DNA from: an uncultured Candidatus Saccharibacteria bacterium
Lineage (GTDB): Bacteria > Patescibacteriota > Minisyncoccia > Sungbacterales > SURF-37
Direction of reading: 5' to 3'
Length of the DNA: 37,102 nt
Assembly: GCA_964395285.1 (NCBI GenBank)
Contig: CAYNAP010000002.1
Span: 1-37,102 of the forward strand
The notes beneath the pieces were generated by a model that saw nothing but the letters and a program-made list of their open reading frames with translations, had not been told where the DNA came from and searched no databases. A program made the translations under genes and the position numbers. This document shows positions 8,527 through 31,100 of this stretch, one piece after another (the stretch's first letter is position 1; each line of letters starts with the position of its first letter).

Positions 8527-8943
8527 ATGGCAAACTACCAAAAAATTGAATTGCCAGCCGACAAGCTCAAGAAACTAAAAGTTGGGCTGGTTTATCTTTT
8601 CGGGTCGCGCGCGGAAGGAACGGCGGGACCCTCAAGCGATTACGATATCGGCGTTGTCTTCACCGACCCGACCATTGTTCGCGGGGATACAACCGGAGTC
8701 TATAATATCCTGTTTGATATTTTCTCTGGCGTGCTGGACTTAAGCGATTTCAGATCTGTTGATATTGTATTTTTGGAACGCGCTTCACTGGAATTGCGTT
8801 TTGACGCGATTCGGCATGGGGTTGTTCTCTTTGAAATTTCATCTGAATTTCGGGCGGAGTTCGAAGAGCGCGTGAGTATGCTTTACCGCGATTTCAGGCC
8901 GCTTTTAGACGAATTTAACCGAGCCATACTCGAGCGCGTATGA
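8527..8943 (+). CDS. mntA: Minimal nucleotidyltransferase (MNT-type antitoxin), pair 2
   Basis: Contains the NTase motif LFGSRAEGTAGPSSDYDIGVV. Confidence 0.75.
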   Translation: MANYQKIELPADKLKKLKVGLVYLFGSRAEGTAGPSSDYDIGVVFTDPTIVRGDTTGVYNILFDIFSGVLDLSDFRSVDIVFLERASLELRFDAIRHGVVLFEISSEFRAEFEERVSMLYRDFRPLLDEFNRAILERV

Positions 8944-9069
8944 ATCCTGTTAGAGATCGTGGTTGCGGCGCCTGCTCTTTAGCAGGGTAACCAAAATTAA
9001 ATTTGCGTATTGTATAAAAGTTTAGCAAAGAGGCAATAGCGAATTTGACCGCGACCTGTCTCTAACGGG

Positions 9070-9534
9070 ATGAACAAATTGCCTTTGAAGCTCCAATCCA
9101 TCACTCCGCGCATGGACGGCATTATGAAGGACGTGGCGAAATTGCAGAAGCTCGGTGGTATTGCGAGGGGTGAATTTATTTCGGGGAAAAATGATTACTT
9201 TGACGTAGCGAAGTTGCGGCTCCGCGAAGCGCTGGAAGGTGTGTTTAATATTGGCGTTCACATTCTATCGCGTATCGAAGGCGGCCGGACAACAGAGTAT
9301 AAGGAGATAGCGAACAAGCTTGGTGAGTTCGGCATTGTTGATCCGAATTTTGCAAAAGAAACGCTTTTAAAAATGGCGGGATACAGAAATCGACTTACTC
9401 ACTTTTATGCGGAAATTACTCCAGAGGAAATGTACGATATTATTCAGAATAACCTAAGGGATTTTGATGTTTTCTTGAAAGCGGTAAAAAATTTGCTGGA
9501 ACGCCCCGAGAGATTCAACTTAACGATTGAGTAA
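9070..9534 (+). CDS. hepT: HEPN/DUF86 (HepT-type toxin), pair 2
   Basis: Contains the YRNRLTHFY motif. The start codon is uncertain because several in-frame ATGs exist. Confidence 0.7.
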   Translation: MNKLPLKLQSITPRMDGIMKDVAKLQKLGGIARGEFISGKNDYFDVAKLRLREALEGVFNIGVHILSRIEGGRTTEYKEIANKLGEFGIVDPNFAKETLLKMAGYRNRLTHFYAEITPEEMYDIIQNNLRDFDVFLKAVKNLLERPERFNLTIE

Positions 9535-11182: not shown

Positions 11183-13228
11183 CTACTGTCTGTACTTTCT
11201 GATGCGGTCGCGTATTTTGGCTGCCAGTTCAAAATCCATTTCCTTGGCCGCCTTCCGCATTTCGCGCTCGAGCGCCAAGATCATCTCGCGCGTGGGGCCG
11301 GCGGGAAGAAATATCTCCTCATCTTTTTTGGGCGAAAGTTCTTCAAGGAGTGATTTTCGGATGGCCTTTTCGATCTTTATCGGGGTTATATTGCGTTCTT
11401 GGTTGTATGCTTCCTGAACTTTCCGGCGGCGCGCCGTTTCATCCATGGCTTTTTGCATTGATTCGGTGATTGCATCGGCGTAAAGGATGACTTCGCCATT
11501 GGTGTGGCGCGCCGCCCGGCCGATTATCTGCAACAGCGTGGTTTCGTTTCGCAAAAAGCCTTCTTTATCGGCATCCAAAATGGCGATGAACGAGACCTCC
11601 GGCAAGTCCAGACCCTCGCGGAGAAGATTTATACCAACGAGCACGTCGTGCTCGCCTTCGCGGAGTTTTTTCAAAATATCCGGGCGGTCAAGAGTTTTTA
11701 CTTCGGAGTGGAGATACTCGGCCTTGATTCCGGCTTCGGATAGGTACTCGGCGATGTCTTCAGCCAGGCGCTTGGTCAGGGCCATGACGAGCGACCGCTC
11801 TTTTTTGGCGACGCGTTTTTTGATTTCGGCAATGACGTCTTTGATTTGATTTTTGGTGGGCCGGACTTCGATTTTCGGATCAAGGACGCCGGTGGGGCGG
11901 ATGAGTTGTTCCACAACGCGACACGAATGATGCGAATGATCACCCGAATGATCCGAATATTCGGGTAATTCGGACGCCATTCGTGTATTGGGGTCACATC
12001 CCGAGCGCCTTAACTCATATATTCCCGGAGTGGCTGATGCAAAAAGCACGCGCTTAACTTTTTCATTGAACTCTTCAAACTTGAGCGGGCGGTTATCTAC
12101 GGCGGACGGCAGGCGAAAACCGTACTCGACTAACGTTTCTTTTCTCGCGCGGTCGCCGTGGTACATGCCGCGGAGTTGGGGCAAAGAAACATGCGATTCG
12201 TCAATGATGACGAGAAAATCATCGCCGAAGCGGTGGCGGTAATAGTCAATCAAGGTGAAAGGCGGCGAGCCAGCCGGGCGGAAAGATAGGTGTCGCGAAT
12301 AATTCTCGATACCATTCGCGTAGCCGGTGTGTTCGAGCATTTCCATATCGAAATTGGTGCGTTCGCCCAAGCGTTCGGCCTCGAGAGGTTTATCTTCCTT
12401 CTTAAATCTTGCGACCTGCTCCTTTAGTTCTTCCTTTATATTGCGGATGGCAAGCTTGAGTTTGGAGCGCGGAGTCACAAAGTGCTTGGCCGGGAAGAGT
12501 TTGAAGGAGGGGATAGCGGATAGGGAATGGGGGCTAACGAGGCCGACTTTTTGGAGGCCAAGGCTTTTTATCTGGTTACGGTCAAGTTCGATTTCGATAA
12601 TGAGTTTTTCTTCACCGGAGGGCAGGAAAATCTCAACTGCATTATCGCGGATGCGGAAATTGCCCTGGCGCGGATCAAAGTCATTTTTGGAGTATTGCAG
12701 TAAAACAAGATCGCGGGCTATTTGGCGCAAGTTAATTCTTTGGCCGATCTTAAACTCAATAGCTATTTTTTCGTATTCTTCGGGATCGCCGATGCCGTAG
12801 ATGCAGGATACCGAGGCAACAATCAGCACGTCGTTTCTCATCAGCAAATCGGCCGTCGCCGCATGGCGGAGCGAATCAATCAACTCGTTAATTTTCGCAT
12901 CCTTTTCTATATAGGTATCGCTCTGGGGGATGTAGGCCTCGGGCTGGTAGTAATCATAGTAGGAGACGAAGTAGTGAACGGCGTTTTCGGGGAAAAATTC
13001 TTTGAACTCTTGGTAGAGTTGGGCGGCAAGAGTTTTATTATGAGAGATGACGAGGGTAGGCTTCTGGATTTTTTCCACGACGTTTGCCATGCTGAAAGTT
13101 TTCCCGCTGCCCGTTACGCCAAGAAGCGTCTGATGCGTTGCGCTGTCGCGAAAACCGGCCACAAGTCTTTCTATCGCTTGCGGCTGATCTCCAGTTGGTT
13201 GGAAATGTGAAAACAGTTTAAATACCAC
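11183..13228 (-). CDS. uvrB: Excinuclease ABC subunit B
   Basis: Contains FKLFSHFQPTGDQPQAI, GVTGSGKT, DESH and VEQLIRPTGVLDP, with a UVR domain at the C-terminus. I chose the GTG start at 13228 (VVFKLF). The longer ORF running to 13336 would overlap the divergent ruvA start. Confidence 0.9.
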   Translation of the reverse strand: MVFKLFSHFQPTGDQPQAIERLVAGFRDSATHQTLLGVTGSGKTFSMANVVEKIQKPTLVISHNKTLAAQLYQEFKEFFPENAVHYFVSYYDYYQPEAYIPQSDTYIEKDAKINELIDSLRHAATADLLMRNDVLIVASVSCIYGIGDPEEYEKIAIEFKIGQRINLRQIARDLVLLQYSKNDFDPRQGNFRIRDNAVEIFLPSGEEKLIIEIELDRNQIKSLGLQKVGLVSPHSLSAIPSFKLFPAKHFVTPRSKLKLAIRNIKEELKEQVARFKKEDKPLEAERLGERTNFDMEMLEHTGYANGIENYSRHLSFRPAGSPPFTLIDYYRHRFGDDFLVIIDESHVSLPQLRGMYHGDRARKETLVEYGFRLPSAVDNRPLKFEEFNEKVKRVLFASATPGIYELRRSGCDPNTRMASELPEYSDHSGDHSHHSCRVVEQLIRPTGVLDPKIEVRPTKNQIKDVIAEIKKRVAKKERSLVMALTKRLAEDIAEYLSEAGIKAEYLHSEVKTLDRPDILKKLREGEHDVLVGINLLREGLDLPEVSFIAILDADKEGFLRNETTLLQIIGRAARHTNGEVILYADAITESMQKAMDETARRRKVQEAYNQERNITPIKIEKAIRKSLLEELSPKKDEEIFLPAGPTREMILALEREMRKAAKEMDFELAAKIRDRIRKYRQ
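11921..11986. repeat. 66-nt CGAAT-type palindromic element inserted in-frame in uvrB
   Basis: The outer arms acacgaatg (11921-11929) and cattcgtgt (11978-11986) are exact reverse complements, and there is an inner ccgaatattcgg palindrome. The element encodes TRMASELPEYSDHSGDHSHHSC (22 aa). Confidence 0.8.
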
Positions 13229-13301
13229 GGTATTATTTTGGATGGTGATCACCTGTAGGGCTGAACTTTGATACAAGTTTAAACATCGGTATGATTGACT
13301 T

Positions 13302-13889
13302 ATGATAGCATTCGTTGAAGGCGAGGTTTTGCTCAAAGGCGAAAAATTTATTGTACTTGATGCCGGCGGGATCGGCTATCGCTTATTCGTTAGTCCGGAA
13401 ACACTGCGAAAAATACCAGAAAAAGGGCAAAAAGTAAAGGTTTTCACTCATCTCTACCAGCGCGAGGACACCCAAGAGCTTTACGGCTTTTTGAATTACG
13501 CCGAACTGGAGTTTTTTGAAACGCTGATTCAGATTTCGGGTATCGGGCCGAAAAGCGGACTCGGGATAATGGCTATTGCCCCGCTCGACACTTTGAAAAA
13601 GGCCATTGCCAGCGGCGACACTTCTTATCTTACGCGCGTCTCGGGTATCGGACGAAAAACCGCGGAGAAAATAGTTTTGGAATTGCGCGAAAAAATGGCG
13701 GGTAAAGGCGTATCTTCGGTTGAGGCGCCGGAACTAAAAGAAGAGGCCGATGCACTGGAAGCCCTAGTGTCTTTAGGCTATACCCAAAGCGAGGCGCGAG
13801 AAGCGTTGAATAGAGTACAAAAAGAAGTTAGCGGAGCAAGCGAGAGAGTCAAGGAGGCGCTGCGACAATTAGGGGATCATAAGAGGTAG
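13302..13889 (+). CDS. ruvA: Holliday junction DNA helicase subunit RuvA
   Basis: Contains MIAFVEGEVLLKGEKFIVLDAGGIGYRLFVS and the HhH motifs ISGIGPKSG and VSGIGRKTAEKI. Confidence 0.9.
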   Translation: MIAFVEGEVLLKGEKFIVLDAGGIGYRLFVSPETLRKIPEKGQKVKVFTHLYQREDTQELYGFLNYAELEFFETLIQISGIGPKSGLGIMAIAPLDTLKKAIASGDTSYLTRVSGIGRKTAEKIVLELREKMAGKGVSSVEAPELKEEADALEALVSLGYTQSEAREALNRVQKEVSGASERVKEALRQLGDHKR

Positions 13890-13892
13890 GGC

Positions 13893-14768
13893 ATGTCATT
13901 TCTGCAATCCCGCGAATGGGAGGAAATTCAGAAAAAGATAGGCCGGACGGTGAAGCGCATCGGGCCGGTTTTGGTCATAAGGCACGACCTGCCCTACGGC
14001 TATAACTATTTGTATTCTCCGCGGCCTAGGGCGCTATCGCCGGAGTTTCTTGCGGCGGCTGGCAAATGGGCTAAAGAGAACCAATCAATTTTCCTTAAGG
14101 TCGATCCGGATCGGCCGCTGGACGGCTCTCTAGGCGGTAAGAAAGGCAACTCACTCCAACCAAGTTCGACTATTTTAATTGATTGCCGCAAAACGGAGGA
14201 TCAGCTGCTTGTGGCTATGCACCCAAAGACTCGCTATAACATCCGCTTGGCCGACAGGCGGGGAGTGGTTATACGGCCGATAGCCGCGGCGAATGTCGGC
14301 AGTTATTTTGAAACTTTCTGGGCACTCATGCAGGAAACGGCCAGCCGTGATCGCTTTTTCGTTCATCCCCGGGAACATTATCAAGCTCTTTTTGCGGTTA
14401 AGGACAATGATTTCGAAAATCAGCTCTGGCTCGCGGAGTATGGAGGGGAAATCGTCGCCGCGGCCATAGTCAACTTTTTCCGGCCGGAAGCCAAGACAAC
14501 TTACCTTCACGGCGCATCAGCCGGCGAGGCGCGCGAGGTCATGGCTCCGCATCTTTTGCATTGGGAGATAATACGCGCGGTGAAATTCCGCGGTTTTGGG
14601 AGTTATGATTTTGGCGGGATTGATGAAGAAAAGTGGCCGGGGCTGACCCGCTTTAAAAAGGGTTTCGGGGGTGATATGGTTAACTTTCCCGACGCGCGCG
14701 ATTTTGTTTTTCGCAAGGCCCTTTATTGGCTTTATAGCTTTCAGCATAGGATTCGGCACGGTTTTTGA
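13893..14768 (+). CDS. FemAB/FemX-family peptidoglycan bridge-forming aminoacyltransferase (short form)
   Basis: Contains FLQSREWEEIQ and HPKTRYNIRLADRRGV with a GNAT-like C-terminal half. It sits next to murE. Confidence 0.65.
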   Translation: MSFLQSREWEEIQKKIGRTVKRIGPVLVIRHDLPYGYNYLYSPRPRALSPEFLAAAGKWAKENQSIFLKVDPDRPLDGSLGGKKGNSLQPSSTILIDCRKTEDQLLVAMHPKTRYNIRLADRRGVVIRPIAAANVGSYFETFWALMQETASRDRFFVHPREHYQALFAVKDNDFENQLWLAEYGGEIVAAAIVNFFRPEAKTTYLHGASAGEAREVMAPHLLHWEIIRAVKFRGFGSYDFGGIDEEKWPGLTRFKKGFGGDMVNFPDARDFVFRKALYWLYSFQHRIRHGF

Positions 14769-14869
14769 TTTGCGAGTTATGCATCTTAAGGTATCGGGCA
14801 TCAGGGTATAAGGTTATCTGGCCGATCGTCCAAATAACCTTATATTGCCTATCTTGCGAGCCTTCTTTT

Positions 14870-16261
14870 ATGAGTTTTCTTATCATTGTTAAAAAAATTG
14901 TTCCGCTTGGAATTTTGGAAGCCGTCCGTCCTTTTTATCATTGGCTTCTTGCGGCACTGGCCGCGTCAGTTTACGGGCGGCCTTCGCGAAGGTTGATAGT
15001 CATCGGCGTGACCGGCACCAACGGCAAAACCACGGTGGTCCACCTCTTGCATGAGATATTCCGGGCAGCGGGGTTTAGAGTCGGGTCGTCTTCATCGCTG
15101 CGGTTTAAAATCAATGATACGGAAGAGAAAAACCTGCTTAAGATGACAATGCCCGGCCGCTTCCGGCTGCAGAAGTTTTTAGCCCGATGCCGCGACTCCG
15201 GATGCCGCTTTGCTATTATCGAGGTGACTTCCGAAGGCATAAGGCAATCGCGCCACCGGTTTATAAATTTCAAGGCCGCCGTGCTTACCAACATCCGGCC
15301 GGAGCATATTGAGGCGCACGGCAGTTTTGATAACTACCGCGGGGCCAAAATGGAGCTTTTTAAAAAACTGCCGCGATCGGGTTTCGCTGTTCTTAATAAA
15401 GAAGACGAGTCGTCGAAACTTATTGCCGAAGACACTAAAGCCGAAACTATTTGGTATTCGCCTTCATTCATCGAGGTAAAGCATATTGGCCATCCGGTCC
15501 ACGTTAACGCTGCTTACCCTTCGCGCACGCTATTTGAGGTAGAGAACGTTTTTATGGAAATGAATCTCGGCGGCGATTTTAACGTGATGAATGCGCTTGC
15601 CGCTATCGCCGCAGCTATGGCTTTTAATGTTTCACTTTCGGCAGCGGCACAAGCATTAGGCCAGTTCAAGGGTGTTGCCGGGCGGATGGAGTATATCCAG
15701 AATAAGCCGTTTGCAGTGGTGGTGGATTACGCGCATACGCCGGATGCGCTGGAAAGCGTCTATGGGACGCTTTCCAGTGCAAGCTCAAAGCTCAAAGCTT
15801 CCGCCTACGCCGAGGCTTCCGCCGCCGGTAAACCTTTGGCGGACAAGTCGGCGGGCAGGCAAAATTCAAAACTAATCTGCGTTCTTGGCGCGGCCGGAGG
15901 AGGGCGCGACAAGTGGAAACGTCCGGAGATGGGCAAAGTCGCTGCCAACTTTTGCAGAGAGGTTATTTTGACCAGCGAGGATCCAGACGACGAAAATCCT
16001 CAGCGGATTATGGAAGAGATTGAAAGAGGATTTTCGTCAAATTCCAAATTCCAAATTCCAAATTCCAAAAAAGTCGTAGATCGGCGGGAAGCAATTTGTT
16101 CCGCGTTGCAGGATGCTAAACCCGGTGATACAGTCATCATAACCGGCATGGGCGCCCAGCCGTGGTTTATCGAGAAAGGCAGAAAGATACCGTGGGATGA
16201 CAGGGAAGTTGTTAAGGAAGAACTAGTTAAATTAGCGGATGTTCCTACGAATTACGAATAA
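14870..16261 (+). CDS. murE: UDP-N-acetylmuramoyl-tripeptide synthetase (MurE-type Mur ligase)
   Basis: Contains GVTGTNGKTT, DYAHTPDALE and GAAGGGRDKWKRPEMG. The start was taken at ATG 14870 (MSFLIIVKK). Confidence 0.8.
   Translation: MSFLIIVKKIVPLGILEAVRPFYHWLLAALAASVYGRPSRRLIVIGVTGTNGKTTVVHLLHEIFRAAGFRVGSSSSLRFKINDTEEKNLLKMTMPGRFRLQKFLARCRDSGCRFAIIEVTSEGIRQSRHRFINFKAAVLTNIRPEHIEAHGSFDNYRGAKMELFKKLPRSGFAVLNKEDESSKLIAEDTKAETIWYSPSFIEVKHIGHPVHVNAAYPSRTLFEVENVFMEMNLGGDFNVMNALAAIAAAMAFNVSLSAAAQALGQFKGVAGRMEYIQNKPFAVVVDYAHTPDALESVYGTLSSASSKLKASAYAEASAAGKPLADKSAGRQNSKLICVLGAAGGGRDKWKRPEMGKVAANFCREVILTSEDPDDENPQRIMEEIERGFSSNSKFQIPNSKKVVDRREAICSALQDAKPGDTVIITGMGAQPWFIEKGRKIPWDDREVVKEELVKLADVPTNYE
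16038..16072 (+). repeat. Heptamer microsatellite (CAAATTC x4 plus a degenerate copy) inside murE
   Basis: Sequence caaattc caaattc caaattc caaattc caaaaaa, translated as SNSKFQIPNSKK. Confidence 0.9.
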
Positions 16262-16307
16262 TTTTGAATTACGAATTCGCAATTCGGTGAAATTCGTAAT
16301 TCGTAGG
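16244..16307. repeat. 64-nt CGAAT-type palindromic element spanning the murE stop codon
   Basis: cctacgaattacgaat (16244-16259) is the exact reverse complement of attcgtaattcgtagg (16292-16307). The inner sequence is gaattacgaattcgcaattc. Confidence 0.85.
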
Positions 16308-16313
16308 ATTACC

Positions 16314-28647: not shown

Positions 28648-29289
28648 GTGAAACTTTATATTCCAAAACTGAATCAAGTTGTGCTGATTATAATATTTGC
28701 CGAGTTTCTTTTTGTCATGGCTGCGGGTATCATCGTGCCGGTCTTCGCCATATTCATATTAAGAGACATTAAAGATGCGGCAATACCAGTCATTGGATTT
28801 GCGACGGCGATATACTGGCTGGTCAAATCCGTTTTGCAGCTGCCTATCGCGCGCAAGCTCGATAAAAACCACGGCGAGTATGATGATTTCTATTCGTTGA
28901 TTTTAGGCACATCCATCACTACGATGGCTGTTTTTTCTTTTTACTTTGCAACGGAGATTTGGCATATTTACCTCTTGCAATTTATAGTTGCCATTGGCGA
29001 TGCGTTTGCCGTGCCGCCGTTCTACGCCATTTTTACCCGACATCTTGACGCCAATTCCGAGGGTTTTGAATGGTCGCTTCGTTCGAGTTTCTCCTTGGGC
29101 GCCGGTTCGGCCATATCCGGCGCTCTTTCGGGGGTCTTGGCCGCAATTATCGGCGTTCGCCCCTTGTATCTGGTCAACGGGACACTGATGATGATCGGGG
29201 TTATAATTTTACTTTTCCTTAAACCATACATAAGACCCAAGGCCGAGAAGCCGGTGGAAAGGGTGTTTATTGAACAAAAAAGGGTATAG
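28648..29289 (+). CDS. Six-TM MFS-like membrane protein (half-size)
   Basis: GTG start, about 6 hydrophobic segments, and a short positively charged loop (ARKLDKNHG). Weak family call. Confidence 0.45.
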   Translation: MKLYIPKLNQVVLIIIFAEFLFVMAAGIIVPVFAIFILRDIKDAAIPVIGFATAIYWLVKSVLQLPIARKLDKNHGEYDDFYSLILGTSITTMAVFSFYFATEIWHIYLLQFIVAIGDAFAVPPFYAIFTRHLDANSEGFEWSLRSSFSLGAGSAISGALSGVLAAIIGVRPLYLVNGTLMMIGVIILLFLKPYIRPKAEKPVERVFIEQKRV

Positions 29290-29292
29290 GGT

Positions 29293-29363
29293 AATCGCGA
29301 ATATACGAATTAAAAACAAATATACGAATTCGTATATTCGTGAACATTCGTATATTCGCGATT
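29293..29363. repeat. 71-nt CGAAT-type palindromic element upstream of polX
   Basis: aatcgcgaatatacgaat (29293-29310) is the exact reverse complement of attcgtatattcgcgatt (29346-29363). An inner 20-nt perfect palindrome aatatacgaattcgtatatt lies at 29319-29338. Confidence 0.85.
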
Positions 29364-29369
29364 GCTCTT

Positions 29370-31100
29370 ATGATCAATCAGGAACTCTCCAAAATTTTCT
29401 ATGAAATGGCCCTCCTGCTCGATATGCAGGAAGTGGCGTTTAAGCCGCGGGCTTTTGAGAAAGCCTCGCTTTCGATCGGATCGATGGAGGAAGACCTCCG
29501 CGATATTTATAAGCGCGGAGGGCTCAAGGCCTTGGAACAAATTCCCGATATCGGCAAAGGCATTGCCGAGCGAATCGAGGAATATATCAAGCGCGGGCAT
29601 GTTAAGGATTATGCGGCCATGAAGAGAAAAGTGCCGGTTGACTTGGAAGGCATTAAAAGGATTGAGGGTATCGGGCCGAAGACGATTAAACTTTTGTGGC
29701 AGAAATTAAAAATTCGCACGGTTGCCGATTTGGAAAAAGCGGCGCGGACCGGAAAAGTCCGCGGCATCCCCGGGCTTGGCGCGAAAACCGAGGAAAATAT
29801 TTTGAAGGGCGTTGAGTTTGTCAAAAAATCGGGCGGGCGGTTTTTGCTCGGCGATATACACGGTTTGATAAAAGAAATTGAAGCGCGGCTTGAAAAGTTG
29901 CCGGGAGTTGAGCGGGCGCTCGCGGCCGGATCGTTCCGGCGGATGAAAGAAACGGTGGGGGATGCCGACATGCTGGTTATTTCCTCCAAGCCCCAGCCAG
30001 TGATGGATTATTTTATCCACATGCCCGAAGTGGCCCACATTTACGCTCACGGCGCGACTAAATCAATGGTTAAACTCAAAAACGGCCTCGACGTTGATTT
30101 GCGCGTGGTCGAAAAAGAATCGTTTGGCGCCGCACTCAACTACTTTACCGGATCGAAATATCACAACGTGGCTTTGCGCGAAATAGCCATTAAAAAGGGC
30201 CTAAAACTTAACGAATACGGACTTTACAAGGGTAAAAAGCAAGTCGCCGGGCGCACCGAGGAGGATTTATACAAAGCACTAGGGCTTAAGTATATTGAGC
30301 CGGAGTTGCGGGAGAATACCGGCGAAATAGAGGCGGCGCGGGAGGGGAAGTTGCCCAAAGACTTAATAGGCTATAACGATCTTCGCGGCGATCTTCAAAT
30401 CCAAACCGACTGGAGCGACGGCGCAAATTCGATAGAAGAAATGGTCAAGATTGCTATTGAAGTCGGACTTCAATATATAGCGATAACCGATCACACGAGG
30501 TCCTTGGCCATGACCGGCGGCGCGGATGAGAAAAAGTTGGAGAGGCAGATGGCGGCGATTGACCAAATCAACTCAAAAGTCAAAAGTCAAAAGTCAAAAT
30601 TTCGGGTGCTAAAGGGAGCAGAAGTCAATATTTTACCGAGCGGCAAATTGGATATTGACGATAAGACACTCGCTAAGTTGGATTGCGTGGGCGCGGCGGT
30701 GCACTCCAATTTTAAAATGTCAAAAAGCGAGATGACTAAGCGCATTATAAGAGCGATGGAGAATCCCCATATTGATATTTTGTTTCATCCCACCGGCCGG
30801 ATCATCAACCGCCGCGCGCCTTACGAAGTTGACATGGATGAGATTATAAAGGCAGCTAAGCGCACCGGGACGATTCTCGAGATTGACGCTTCGCCGGAGC
30901 GGCTGGATATTAAGGACGAATATGTGAGGAAGTGCGTTCGCACCGGAGTTAAGATGGTTGTCGACTCCGATGCTCATTCGCTTGGCGGCTATCAGTTTTT
31001 AAAGTTCGGCATCGCCCAGGCGCGAAGAGGGTGGGCGGAGAGGAAAGACGTTTTGAATACTAAGCCGTTAAAAGATTTGCTAAAGTCTTTAAAAGGATGA
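29370..31100 (+). CDS. polX: Family X DNA polymerase with a C-terminal PHP domain
   Basis: HhH motifs IPDIGKGIAERI, IEGIGPKTIKLL and IPGLGAKTEENI. Pol-beta NTase motif GSFRRMKETVGDADMLV. PHP motifs ITDHT and VDSDAHS. Confidence 0.85.
   Translation: MINQELSKIFYEMALLLDMQEVAFKPRAFEKASLSIGSMEEDLRDIYKRGGLKALEQIPDIGKGIAERIEEYIKRGHVKDYAAMKRKVPVDLEGIKRIEGIGPKTIKLLWQKLKIRTVADLEKAARTGKVRGIPGLGAKTEENILKGVEFVKKSGGRFLLGDIHGLIKEIEARLEKLPGVERALAAGSFRRMKETVGDADMLVISSKPQPVMDYFIHMPEVAHIYAHGATKSMVKLKNGLDVDLRVVEKESFGAALNYFTGSKYHNVALREIAIKKGLKLNEYGLYKGKKQVAGRTEEDLYKALGLKYIEPELRENTGEIEAAREGKLPKDLIGYNDLRGDLQIQTDWSDGANSIEEMVKIAIEVGLQYIAITDHTRSLAMTGGADEKKLERQMAAIDQINSKVKSQKSKFRVLKGAEVNILPSGKLDIDDKTLAKLDCVGAAVHSNFKMSKSEMTKRIIRAMENPHIDILFHPTGRIINRRAPYEVDMDEIIKAAKRTGTILEIDASPERLDIKDEYVRKCVRTGVKMVVDSDAHSLGGYQFLKFGIAQARRGWAERKDVLNTKPLKDLLKSLKG
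30574..30601 (+). repeat. Heptamer microsatellite (CAAAAGT x3 plus CAAAATT) inside polX
   Basis: Sequence caaaagt caaaagt caaaagt caaaatt, translated within NSKVKSQKSKFR. This is the same heptamer as the arms around the four-helix-bundle gene. Confidence 0.9.

What the first reader, a model, noticed from the sequence alone, without database searches (positions are those of the whole stretch)
11921..11986. Exact 22-codon palindromic-element insertion inside UvrB
A 66-nt element has exact 9-nt outer arms (acacgaatg / cattcgtgt) and an inner ccgaatattcgg palindrome. It sits in-frame in uvrB and adds TRMASELPEYSDHSGDHSHHSC.

The insertion lies between the conserved YEL..SG segment and VVEQLIRPTG. 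From memory, in E. coli UvrB these two segments are almost contiguous (YELEKSGGDVVDQVVRPTG).

This resembles the in-frame palindromic elements (RPEs) of Rickettsia. Related CGAAT-built palindromes of similar length occur intergenically at 16244-16307 and 29293-29363.
Basis: partly seen in the sequence, partly recalled or inferred. Interest (0 to 1): 0.65.

Follow-up and report, generated by a model that had tools for sequence, protein, structure and literature searches.

The report
Palindromic repeat inserted in-frame in UvrB
An 80-base palindromic repeat, one copy of a family scattered through ultra-small "CPR" bacteria, sits in frame inside the DNA-repair gene uvrB and adds a floppy 27-residue loop; this resembles the Rickettsia palindromic elements, and I found no earlier report of it in this bacterial group.

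Summary
Window 11921-11986 is an imperfect palindrome inside uvrB (minus strand), read in frame. It is absent from Bacillus UvrB and from the closest relative (84% identical).

The element is longer than reported: 80 nt (11918-11997), 27 codons (CDPNTRMASELPEYSDHSGDHSHHSCR). It belongs to a dispersed repeat family. A metagenome scan found 17 loci, with consensus GCGATCCGAAT...ATTCGGATCGC. An HMM built without the window matches 11919-11995 without gaps (E 5e-18).

The same element, in the same orientation and frame, lies in frame in MnmA (SDSNLRIASELSEYSEHSDVNSDHSDR). It lies in another frame in MurG. The frame used in UvrB and MnmA is the only one of six without a stop in the consensus.

The UvrB site is the linker between the two helicase domains. 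AlphaFold predicts it disordered. It is a hotspot: 39 of 120 Parcubacteria UvrBs carry at least 8 extra residues there, from several unrelated hairpin or tandem-repeat sequences.

Across six conserved proteins, 38% of lineage-specific insertions fold as hairpins, against 3% of control segments.

Best reading: a non-autonomous, MITE/REP-like element that is tolerated and translated, analogous to Rickettsia RPEs but not one of them. How it moves is unknown. A RAYT-like transposase gene in the window is only a lead.

The parts
11918..11997 (-). 80-nt palindromic repeat element (CGAAT-unit family). Its arms are built of four CGAAT units and three ATTCG units, and its ends are GCGACAC...GGGGTCAC (family consensus GCGATCC...GGATCGC).
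   Evidence: An HMM built from metagenomic copies without the window matches 11919-11995 without gaps, at 59.4 bits and E 5.2e-18. It is 65/80 identical to the consensus, and 39/52 outside the pattern used for the search. DNA fold z -3.5.
11918..11998 (-). The 27 extra codons in uvrB: CDPNTRMASELPEYSDHSGDHSHHSCR, residues 419-445 of the called 689-aa protein P0001.
   Evidence: ORF translation. Unaligned against B. caldotenax UvrB. Absent in P0002 and in 65 of 120 homologues. In the AlphaFold2 model the blocks of ten residues 421-430 and 431-440 average pLDDT 54 and 44, 426-430 and 432-441 are below 50, and there is no secondary structure between helix 411-416 and strand 446-448.
11921..11986 (-).
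11183..13252 (-). Host gene uvrB (called product P0001, 689 aa; the mechanical ORF runs to 13336).
   Evidence: E 1e-233 to UvrB 2fdc. Pfam UvrB domains and Candidatus Sungbacteria UvrB names among the homologues. Conserved ruvA/femAB/S20/holA synteny.
16243..16308 (.). Intergenic palindrome of TACGAAT units, between the Mur-ligase gene (its stop lies inside the left arm) and a PHP-domain gene. Same build as the uvrB element; family membership not shown.
   Evidence: (I5). Not detected by the family HMM.
29288..29368 (.). Intergenic palindrome of ATATACGAAT units, between an MFS gene and the PolX gene. Same build as the uvrB element; family membership not shown.
   Evidence: I20; second strongest local fold in the window. 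Not detected by the family HMM.

Best explanation
The segment is one copy of a short, non-coding, palindromic repeat family of about 80 nt. The family consensus is GCGATCCGAATGATCCGAATTTTCATCCGAATGCTCCGAATATTCGGATAATTCGGATGTCATTCGTAGATTAGGATCGC. Copies are dispersed in Parcubacteria/Minisyncoccia (CPR) genomes, mostly between genes.

Shown:
- This copy landed in the codons for the linker between the two RecA-like helicase domains of UvrB.
- It lies in the one orientation and frame of six that has no stop codon in the consensus.
- The gene stays open across it.

Inferred:
- The element is transcribed and translated as a 27-residue, Ser/Asp/His-rich disordered loop that UvrB tolerates.
- Selection acts as a filter. 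Only insertions that keep the frame, lack stops and fall in permissive loops survive. That would explain why the same linker (and a second loop near residue 343) carries different elements in different lineages.
- After insertion the copy drifts, and probably expands or contracts by slippage among its 8-9-nt units.
- The element itself is probably selfish or neutral rather than a functional part of UvrB.

Unknown: how copies spread. No target-site duplication is visible. That would fit a single-strand, hairpin-recognising HUH (Y1) transposase such as the RAYT-like gene at 6513-7208, but this link is speculation.
For: Family membership.
- A 22-fixed-base pattern from the element's core finds 17 metagenome loci.
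- Their flanks align over 80 nt.
- An HMM built without the window hits 11919-11995 without gaps at E 5.2e-18.
- Identity outside the searched pattern is 39/52.

In frame in unrelated genes.
- MnmA in L088/L095/L096/L100/L102 carries SDSNL(R/P)(I/M)(A/T)SELSEYSEHS(D/N)VN(S/L)DHSDR. UvrB carries DPNTRMASELPEYSDHSGDHSHHSCR.
- MurG in L092 carries the element in another frame.
- The consensus has a single stop-free frame of six, and it is the one used in UvrB and MnmA.

Presence and absence.
- The element is absent in P0002, the closest relative at 84% identity.
- Insertions are scattered over the UvrB tree.
- About 8 of 120 MnmA homologues carry the element.

Other copies at the UvrB site. The family HMM also hits L086 at both UvrB hotspots, L001 and L003 (sequences).

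Hotspot.
- 39 of 120 UvrBs have at least 8 extra residues here.
- Many of these fold as hairpins: z -3.3 to -7.0 in L001, L003, L012, L043, L082, L084, L085.

Generality.
- Lineage-specific insertions of at least 10 aa in six conserved proteins fold with z < -3 in 38% of cases, against 3% of controls (Mann-Whitney p 9e-10).
- Another family has three copies within 14 kb in L047.

Tolerance. The insertion is a low-confidence loop with no secondary structure, between helix 411-416 and strand 446-448.

All 88 loci examined are uninterrupted and in frame at the site.
Against: - Only one HMM-detectable copy lies in the 37-kb window, so the copy number in this genome is unknown.
- The metagenome copies were fished with a pattern taken from the window. 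The central 28 nt therefore match by construction, and the family sample is biased towards this subtype.
- No terminal duplication, autonomous partner element or transposition intermediate was found.
- No covariation supports selection on the hairpin: the units are simply conserved.
- Translation of the loop is inferred from frame conservation, not observed.
- Read-level support for the junctions could not be checked.
Confidence: 0.8

Rival explanations
1. The insertion arose locally. Replication slippage and hairpin-templated strand switching expanded a short native repeat in a permissive linker, and no mobile element was involved.
For: - The arms are iterated 8-9-nt units, and the right arm encodes (D/H)HS repeats.
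- Other lineages carry pure tandem repeats at the same site: L007 GGAAGN, L020 CCTACAACC, L044 TTCGGGT units.
- Insert length varies among copies that match the same family HMM: WIN, L086, L001 and L003.
Against: - The whole 80 nt aligns without gaps to copies in unrelated genes and between genes, at E 5e-18.
- The terminal inverted ends, which are not part of the repeated units, are shared.
- Local slippage probably reshapes copies after insertion, but it does not explain the origin of this one.
Confidence: 0.07
2. The hairpin is a selected functional structure in uvrB mRNA or DNA at this position. It might act as a pause site between the two helicase domains, a processing site, an attenuator or a protein-binding site.
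For: Hairpin-forming inserts recur at exactly this codon position in many lineages. In L082 versus L084 a 9-bp stem is unchanged while its 18-nt loop differs at many positions.
Against: - The inserts are unrelated in sequence and length.
- They are absent in 65 of 120 homologues, including the closest relative.
- Some inserts are not palindromic at all.
- No terminator-like site is found.
- No compensatory changes are seen.
- The same kind of insert is found in many other proteins.
Confidence: 0.06
3. The segment is not part of the mature protein. It is removed from the mRNA or bypassed by the ribosome.
For: It is a compact hairpin within a coding region. Precedents exist elsewhere from general knowledge (T4 gene 60, mitochondrial byp elements).
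Against: - Every one of 88 loci and 120 proteins is open and in frame across the site.
- The element sits in its only stop-free frame in both UvrB and MnmA. That is what selection for read-through translation predicts, and removal before or during translation would not require it.
Confidence: 0.03
4. It is an assembly artefact, a chimeric join or a collapsed repeat.
For: Palindromes and repeats can mislead short-read assemblers. The exact protein is a singleton on one contig.
Against: - The insertion is a whole number of codons (81 nt) and leaves the gene in frame and stop-free.
- Diverged family copies at the same site occur in independent assemblies: L086, L001, L003.
- A different insert at the site (P0003) was assembled on six contigs from separate JGI and ENA samples.
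Confidence: 0.03

Closest known systems
Rickettsia palindromic elements (RPE-1 to RPE-10; Ogata et al. 2000, as summarised in PMC10969869)
   Same: - Short, non-autonomous palindromic repeats in a reduced-genome, host-dependent bacterium.
- Inserted in frame in unrelated housekeeping genes.
- Each family contributes a recognisable peptide.
- Insertions fall where the fold tolerates them.
   Different: - About 80 nt, against roughly 100-150 nt for RPEs.
- A different phylum (Patescibacteria).
- Arms built of iterated CGAAT units.
- Sequence similarity to RPE families was not tested.
- The same protein loop is hit repeatedly by several different families.
Bacterial MITEs that fuse to ORFs (Coxiella QMITE1, intragenic ERIC, pneumococcal BOX; review PMC10969869)
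   Same: Small size, terminal inverted repeats, no coding capacity of their own, many copies, and occasional in-frame fusion with host genes.
   Different: No target-site duplication and no parent insertion sequence with matching ends were found here.
REP/REPIN elements and their RAYT (Y1, HUH) transposases
   Same: - Short imperfect palindromes, mostly between genes.
- No target-site duplication.
- The window encodes a Y1_Tnp protein whose best NCBIfam match is 'REP-associated tyrosine transposase'. GC-rich hairpins flank it.
   Different: - The hairpins flanking that gene (TTACGAGGCCSGGCCTCGTAA) are a different sequence from the CGAAT element.
- The NCBIfam score is far below the cut-off (27 against 80 bits).
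- REPs are by definition extragenic.
- No link between this enzyme and the CGAAT family was shown.
Repetitive hairpin-forming elements of sponge mitochondria (PMC2800124, found; title and abstract only)
   Same: Several families of small hairpin repeats invading compact genomes.
   Different: An organellar setting. I did not read the paper beyond its abstract.

Membership tests
UvrB (host gene) | Full-length similarity to solved UvrB, with helicase domains, UvrB interaction domain and UVR domain | tested here: met
   E 1e-233 to 2fdc over residues 39-713 of the ORF. The expected Pfam domain set is listed for P0001.
CGAAT-unit 80-nt palindromic repeat family (defined here) | End-to-end match to a profile built from independent copies | tested here: met
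   nhmmer E 5.2e-18, HMM positions 2-78 of 80, no gaps, window excluded from the model. 65/80 identical to the consensus.
CGAAT-unit 80-nt palindromic repeat family (defined here) | Copies at unrelated genomic sites | tested here: met
   17 metagenome loci in several distinct contexts: MnmA, MurG, upstream of a hydrogenase gene, and between genes. Further copies lie in L045, L065 and L086.
Rickettsia palindromic elements (RPE) | Palindromic repeat inserted in frame in unrelated genes, contributing a conserved peptide | tested here: met
   The UvrB and MnmA peptides share DxN..M.SEL.EYS.HS...HS.R.
Rickettsia palindromic elements (RPE) | Sequence belongs to one of the RPE-1 to RPE-10 families of Rickettsia; length about 100-150 bp | not tested
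   No RPE consensus sequences were available in the tools. The length here (80 nt) and the host phylum differ, so I call it an analogue, not a member.
MITE | Terminal inverted repeats, small size, no ORF of its own, many copies | tested here: met
   GCGATCC...GGATCGC ends in the consensus. 80 nt. Multiple loci.
MITE | Target-site duplication flanking each copy | tested here: not met
   The flanks of independent copies show no shared or duplicated bases, by eye. For example, AAG|GCGAT...ATTGC|TTTT and AAC|GCGAC...GTCAC|ATCC.
MITE | A parent autonomous insertion sequence with the same ends | not tested
   Only fragments of genomes were available. No such element was seen in the loci held.
REP/REPIN-RAYT system | A RAYT gene flanked by copies of the very repeat it mobilises | tested here: inconclusive
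   The Y1_Tnp gene at 6513-7208 (Pfam E 6e-9; NCBIfam REP_Tyr_transpos 27 bits against a cut-off of 80) is flanked by a different, GC-rich hairpin family (D4), not by CGAAT elements.
REP/REPIN-RAYT system | Extragenic location | tested here: not met
   This copy and the MnmA and MurG copies are intragenic.
Intrinsic terminator | GC-rich stem followed by a T run | tested here: not met
   No terminator-like site at the element on either strand.

The most novel reading that the evidence does not exclude
Parcubacteria/Minisyncoccia proteins are being remodelled on a large scale by many families of short palindromic and tandem repeats.

These repeats hit the same inter-domain loops again and again. 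At least eight unrelated insert types occupy one UvrB linker, and the picture is similar in an MnmA loop.

This recurrence would reflect either a targeted, hairpin-dependent insertion mechanism (for instance HUH/Y1 transposases acting on single-stranded DNA) or an exceptionally high insertion flux. Either way it would make these repeats a main source of new protein loops in ultra-small genomes. That would be a second and broader instance of the phenomenon so far regarded as a peculiarity of Rickettsia.
Probability: 0.45. Interest if true: 0.75.

Novelty: new member of a known kind. Interest (0 to 1): 0.6.

Why it matters
In-frame palindromic repeats have been treated as a near-unique oddity of Rickettsia. 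The 2024 MITE review (PMC10969869) says only that a similar process is 'conceivable' in other prokaryotes.

Here a defined 80-nt family does the same thing in an unrelated, very large and poorly understood bacterial radiation. It is found in UvrB, MnmA and MurG. Hairpin-forming DNA is also strongly enriched among lineage-specific insertions in conserved proteins.

Three consequences follow.
- It explains part of the unexplained length variation and low-complexity loops in CPR proteins.
- It warns annotators and structure predictors that such loops are repeat-derived.
- It offers natural presence/absence pairs for testing how essential enzymes tolerate 20-50-residue insertions at a helicase hinge.

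I found no paper describing this in four literature searches. That is not proof that none exists.

Tried and rejected
- A strict palindrome scan (score at least 13, mismatch -2) missed the element because its arms are interrupted.
- A sliding 80-nt fold ranking did not place it among the 32 strongest local folds of the window. As a hairpin it is moderate. The family match is the strong evidence, not the fold.
- blastn-short of the 66-nt core against the window and 80 loci gave only weak unit-level hits.
- A protein word search with the 54-aa local segment returned nothing and cost one search.
- RNAalifold on 16 copies gave only the two inner 7-bp helices and no useful covariation. Selection on structure can therefore be neither shown nor excluded.
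- The family HMM does not find the two intergenic palindromes of the window. A small HMM built from them found only themselves, L007 and a weak L045 hit.
- I first took the shared GAC(C/T)CCAAY flank in the window, L086, L001 and L003 as evidence of one ancestral insertion. It is simply the end of the element. The junctions differ: the element ends directly before VVEQ in the window and L086, but before P-C-I-V in L001 and L003. So there were at least two insertion events, or later indels.
- I considered a target-site duplication of YTGY around the Cys codons but could not establish it.
- The pattern scan of viral contigs found nothing.
- The RAYT-like protein has no match among solved structures.
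- Homologues of the RAYT-like gene occur in four other loci, but none lies next to a CGAAT element.
Full report
**1. The observation**

On the plus strand, window 11921-11986 reads acacgaatg atgcgaatgatcacccgaatgatccgaatattcgggtaattcggacgc cattcgtgt.
- It lies in a minus-strand ORF (11183..13336) whose product is UvrB. The segment is read in frame as TRMASELPEYSDHSGDHSHHSC.
- phmmer against solved structures gives E 1e-233 to Bacillus caldotenax UvrB. The alignment breaks into two stretches, and residues 446-468 of the ORF have no partner, between YELEHS and VVEQ.
- As a hairpin the segment is moderate. RNA fold of 86 nt gives z -2.75, and the DNA fold gives z -2.34. It was not among the 32 strongest local folds of the window.

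**2. Organism and orthologues**

- The best UvrB homologues are from Candidatus Sungbacteria and other Parcubacteria. The window's own product (P0001) is 689 aa.
- The closest relative, P0002 (84% identity, 654 aa), lies in the same ruvA-femAB / uvrB-S20-holA neighbourhood. It reads YEILKSKDHIAEQ at the site, with no insertion.
- Among the 120 best homologues, 65 have the modal nine residues between YE and EQ. 49 have at least four more, and 39 have at least eight more, up to 42 more.
- On a neighbour-joining tree the insert-bearing sequences are scattered, and sister sequences often differ.
- A second hotspot lies after residue 343.
- Every one of the 88 loci for which I obtained DNA is open and in frame across the site.

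**3. What occupies the site elsewhere**

- Many inserts fold as hairpins far better than shuffles: L012 z -7.0, L043 -6.6, L003 -4.7, L084 -4.7, L001 -3.9, L082 -3.5, L085 -3.3.
- Others are plain tandem repeats of 7-9 nt: L007, L020, L010, L044.
- The sequences fall into several unrelated types, so the linker has been hit many times by different DNA.
- One type (P0003) was assembled on six contigs from separate samples. This argues against assembly artefacts as a general explanation.

**4. The element is a member of a dispersed family**

- The pattern CGAATNNNCCGAATATTCGGNNNATTCG has 22 fixed bases, so 4^22 is about 2e13 and chance matches are not expected. It found 17 metagenome loci.
- Their flanks, which the pattern did not constrain, align into an 80-nt consensus: GCGATCCGAATGATCCGAATTTTCATCCGAATGCTCCGAATATTCGGATAATTCGGATGTCATTCGTAGATTAGGATCGC.
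- An HMM built from these copies without the window matches window 11919-11995 without a gap (59.4 bits, E 5.2e-18).
- The window copy is 65/80 identical to the consensus, and 39/52 outside the searched pattern.
- The true element is therefore 11918-11997. The added coding segment is 27 codons, CDPNTRMASELPEYSDHSGDHSHHSCR (residues 419-445 of P0001). As DNA the 80 nt fold with z -3.5, with 0 of 200 shuffles as good.
- The HMM also hits L086 at both UvrB hotspots, L045, L065, half an element in L044, and weakly the UvrB inserts of L001 and L003.
- In the window and L086 the element ends directly before VVEQ. In L001 and L003 it ends two codons earlier, before P-C-I-V. The family has therefore entered this loop at least twice, or the junctions have since been altered by indels.

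**5. The same element in other proteins**

- In five related contigs the element lies inside mnmA, in the same orientation and frame as in uvrB. It encodes SDSNLRIASELSEYSEHSDVNSDHSDR or SDSNLPMTSELSEYSEHSNVNLDHSDR. Compare DPNTRMASELPEYSDHSGDHSHHSCR in UvrB.
- In L092 it lies inside murG in another frame (HPNDPNIRNIR...).
- Other copies lie between genes.
- The consensus has only one stop-free frame of six, and that is the frame used in UvrB and MnmA.
- The one MnmA homologue that carries an organism name is from a Minisyncoccia (Parcubacteria) genome. About eight of 120 homologues carry the element. The same MnmA loop holds other sequences of 20-30 residues in most of the rest.
- No copy was found in viral contigs.

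**6. Generality**

I took six conserved proteins encoded in the 88 loci: UvrB, a Mur ligase, RuvA, FemAB, HolA and PolA.
- Lineage-specific insertions of 10-60 residues fold with z < -3 in 38% of 64 cases.
- Only 3% of 128 length-matched coding controls do so (Mann-Whitney p 9e-10).
- Without UvrB the figure is 30% (p 0.0015).
- Some inserts have further copies nearby. The L047 UvrB insert recurs twice, 2.8 kb away, in another ORF.
- The window's own Mur-ligase gene carries a different in-frame hairpin insert at 15803-15859.

**7. Where it sits in the protein**

An AlphaFold2 model (56-sequence alignment, mean pLDDT 78.6) shows helix 411-416 (YELRRS), then no secondary structure, then strand 446-448 (VVE). 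Within that stretch the blocks of ten residues 421-430 and 431-440 average pLDDT 54 and 44, and residues 426-430 and 432-441 are below 50. From established knowledge of UvrB structures (from memory, not tested here), this is the connection between helicase domains 1a and 3. A disordered surface loop there is plausibly tolerated. That it has no effect on function is an inference.

**8. Mechanism**

Shown:
- a dispersed repeat;
- in-frame residence in three unrelated genes;
- use of the only open frame;
- patchy presence;
- hotspot loops.

Inferred:
- insertion followed by purifying selection that keeps only insertions compatible with the frame and the loop;
- translation into a disordered loop;
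- later reshaping by slippage among the 8-9-nt units.

Unknown: the mobilising activity.
- I saw no target-site duplication.
- The window encodes a 231-aa Y1_Tnp protein (6513-7208; Pfam E 6e-9). Its best NCBIfam match is REP-associated tyrosine transposase, but far below the cut-off.
- That gene is flanked by six copies of a GC-rich hairpin, TTACGAGGCCSGGCCTCGTAA.
- This shows that a hairpin-repeat/HUH-transposase pair probably exists in this genome. The flanking hairpins are a different family, so the link to the CGAAT element is only a lead.

**9. Rivals**

- Local slippage alone cannot explain an 80-nt gapless match to copies elsewhere.
- A selected RNA or DNA structure in uvrB is unlikely. 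The inserts are unrelated, the closest relative has none, there is no terminator and there is no covariation.
- Removal or bypass is unlikely, because the frame is always preserved.
- An artefact is unlikely, given the diverged family copies at the same site in independent assemblies.

**10. Comparison and novelty**

- The closest known phenomenon is the Rickettsia palindromic elements, as summarised in PMC10969869. The behaviour is the same. The length, phylum and architecture differ, and sequence membership was not tested.
- MITE membership fails on target-site duplication.
- REP/RAYT membership is inconclusive.
- Four literature searches found no description of such elements in CPR bacteria.
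- I rate it a new member of a known kind, of moderate to good interest.

Noticed in passing
window 6513-7208 (-), with hairpins at 5525-5548, 5571-5594, 6416-6439, 6476-6499, 6999-7022, 7233-7256 and direct repeats 6431-6476 / 7270-7315: A 231-aa Y1_Tnp (IS200-like, HUH) protein with RAYT-like motifs (YHVYSRG, PNHYHLLL, LFQGRFKA) is flanked by six copies of a GC-rich hairpin, TTACGAGGCCSGGCCTCGTAA. One copy lies inside the gene itself, in frame (VYEARPRKI). This looks like a REP/RAYT-type system in a CPR genome.
   Followed up: partly
window 2498-2982: A 132-aa ORF of the '23S rRNA intervening sequence protein' family (PF05635) at 2513-2911 is bracketed by 66-nt inverted repeats made of AAAGTC-type units (2498-2563 / 2917-2982, 74% complementary). 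It lies between protein genes, not in an rRNA gene.
   Followed up: no
window 15803-15859: The Mur-ligase gene (14765-16261) carries its own in-frame hairpin insertion, AYAEASAAGKPLADKSAGR (fold -32 kcal/mol, z -3.5). It lies at a position where other Parcubacteria carry other inserts. The sequence family differs from the uvrB element.
   Followed up: partly
window 16040-16069 and 30567-30599: Short tandem repeats are read in frame inside genes. (AATTCC/AAATTCC)n in the Mur-ligase gene encodes NSKFQIPNSK. (AAAGTC)n in the PolX gene encodes NSKVKSQKSKF. The second is 91% complementary to the repeat at 2933-2965.
   Followed up: no
UvrB homologues, site after residue 343 of P0001 (window about 12223): This is a second insertion hotspot in UvrB. 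At least 18 of 120 homologues carry 8-37 extra residues there. L086 has a CGAAT-family copy at this site as well as at the linker, and L012 has a very strong hairpin (z -9.8). The window's own UvrB has no large insert there.
   Followed up: partly
UvrB homologues at the linker site (P0003, P0006, P0008, P0014, P0018, P0050, P0056, P0073, P0097 and others): Many insert-bearing alleles from distant parts of the tree are bracketed by cysteines (S-C ... S/P-C-[IV]V), where empty alleles read K-P-H. At the DNA level this is a flanking direct repeat, YTGY. It could be a target-site duplication, a footprint or a protein-level feature; this remains unexplained.
   Followed up: partly
MnmA homologues P0121-P0240, loop after ATGHYAR: Nearly all Minisyncoccia MnmAs carry 20-30 variable residues in this loop. 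Recognisable repeat-derived peptides (DELRSSSR, RRRTSSLRGR, HPVKSR..KFNGV, PAFAKATAGK, SAEASAKAD) recur at different positions in different MnmAs. This suggests many further element families.
   Followed up: partly
window 3249-3548 and 4356-4655: An exact 300-nt direct repeat, 1107 nt apart, lies inside the 790-aa LamG/DUF2341 protein gene (3133-5505). It may be a recent internal domain duplication or an assembly issue.
   Followed up: no
window 7502-8392 and 8527-9534: Two adjacent nucleotidyltransferase (MNT) / HepT toxin-antitoxin pairs.
   Followed up: no
P0119 (UvrB homologue, 1194 aa): It carries a 540-residue insertion right after the Walker A GKT, with LAGLIDADG/intein Pfam domains. 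This is an intein in UvrB of a related bacterium.
   Followed up: no
L092 2520-2601: A CGAAT-family copy sits in frame in murG on a contig of 64% G+C, far above the 30-42% of most other carriers. The family may therefore extend beyond low-GC Parcubacteria, or may have been transferred.
   Followed up: no
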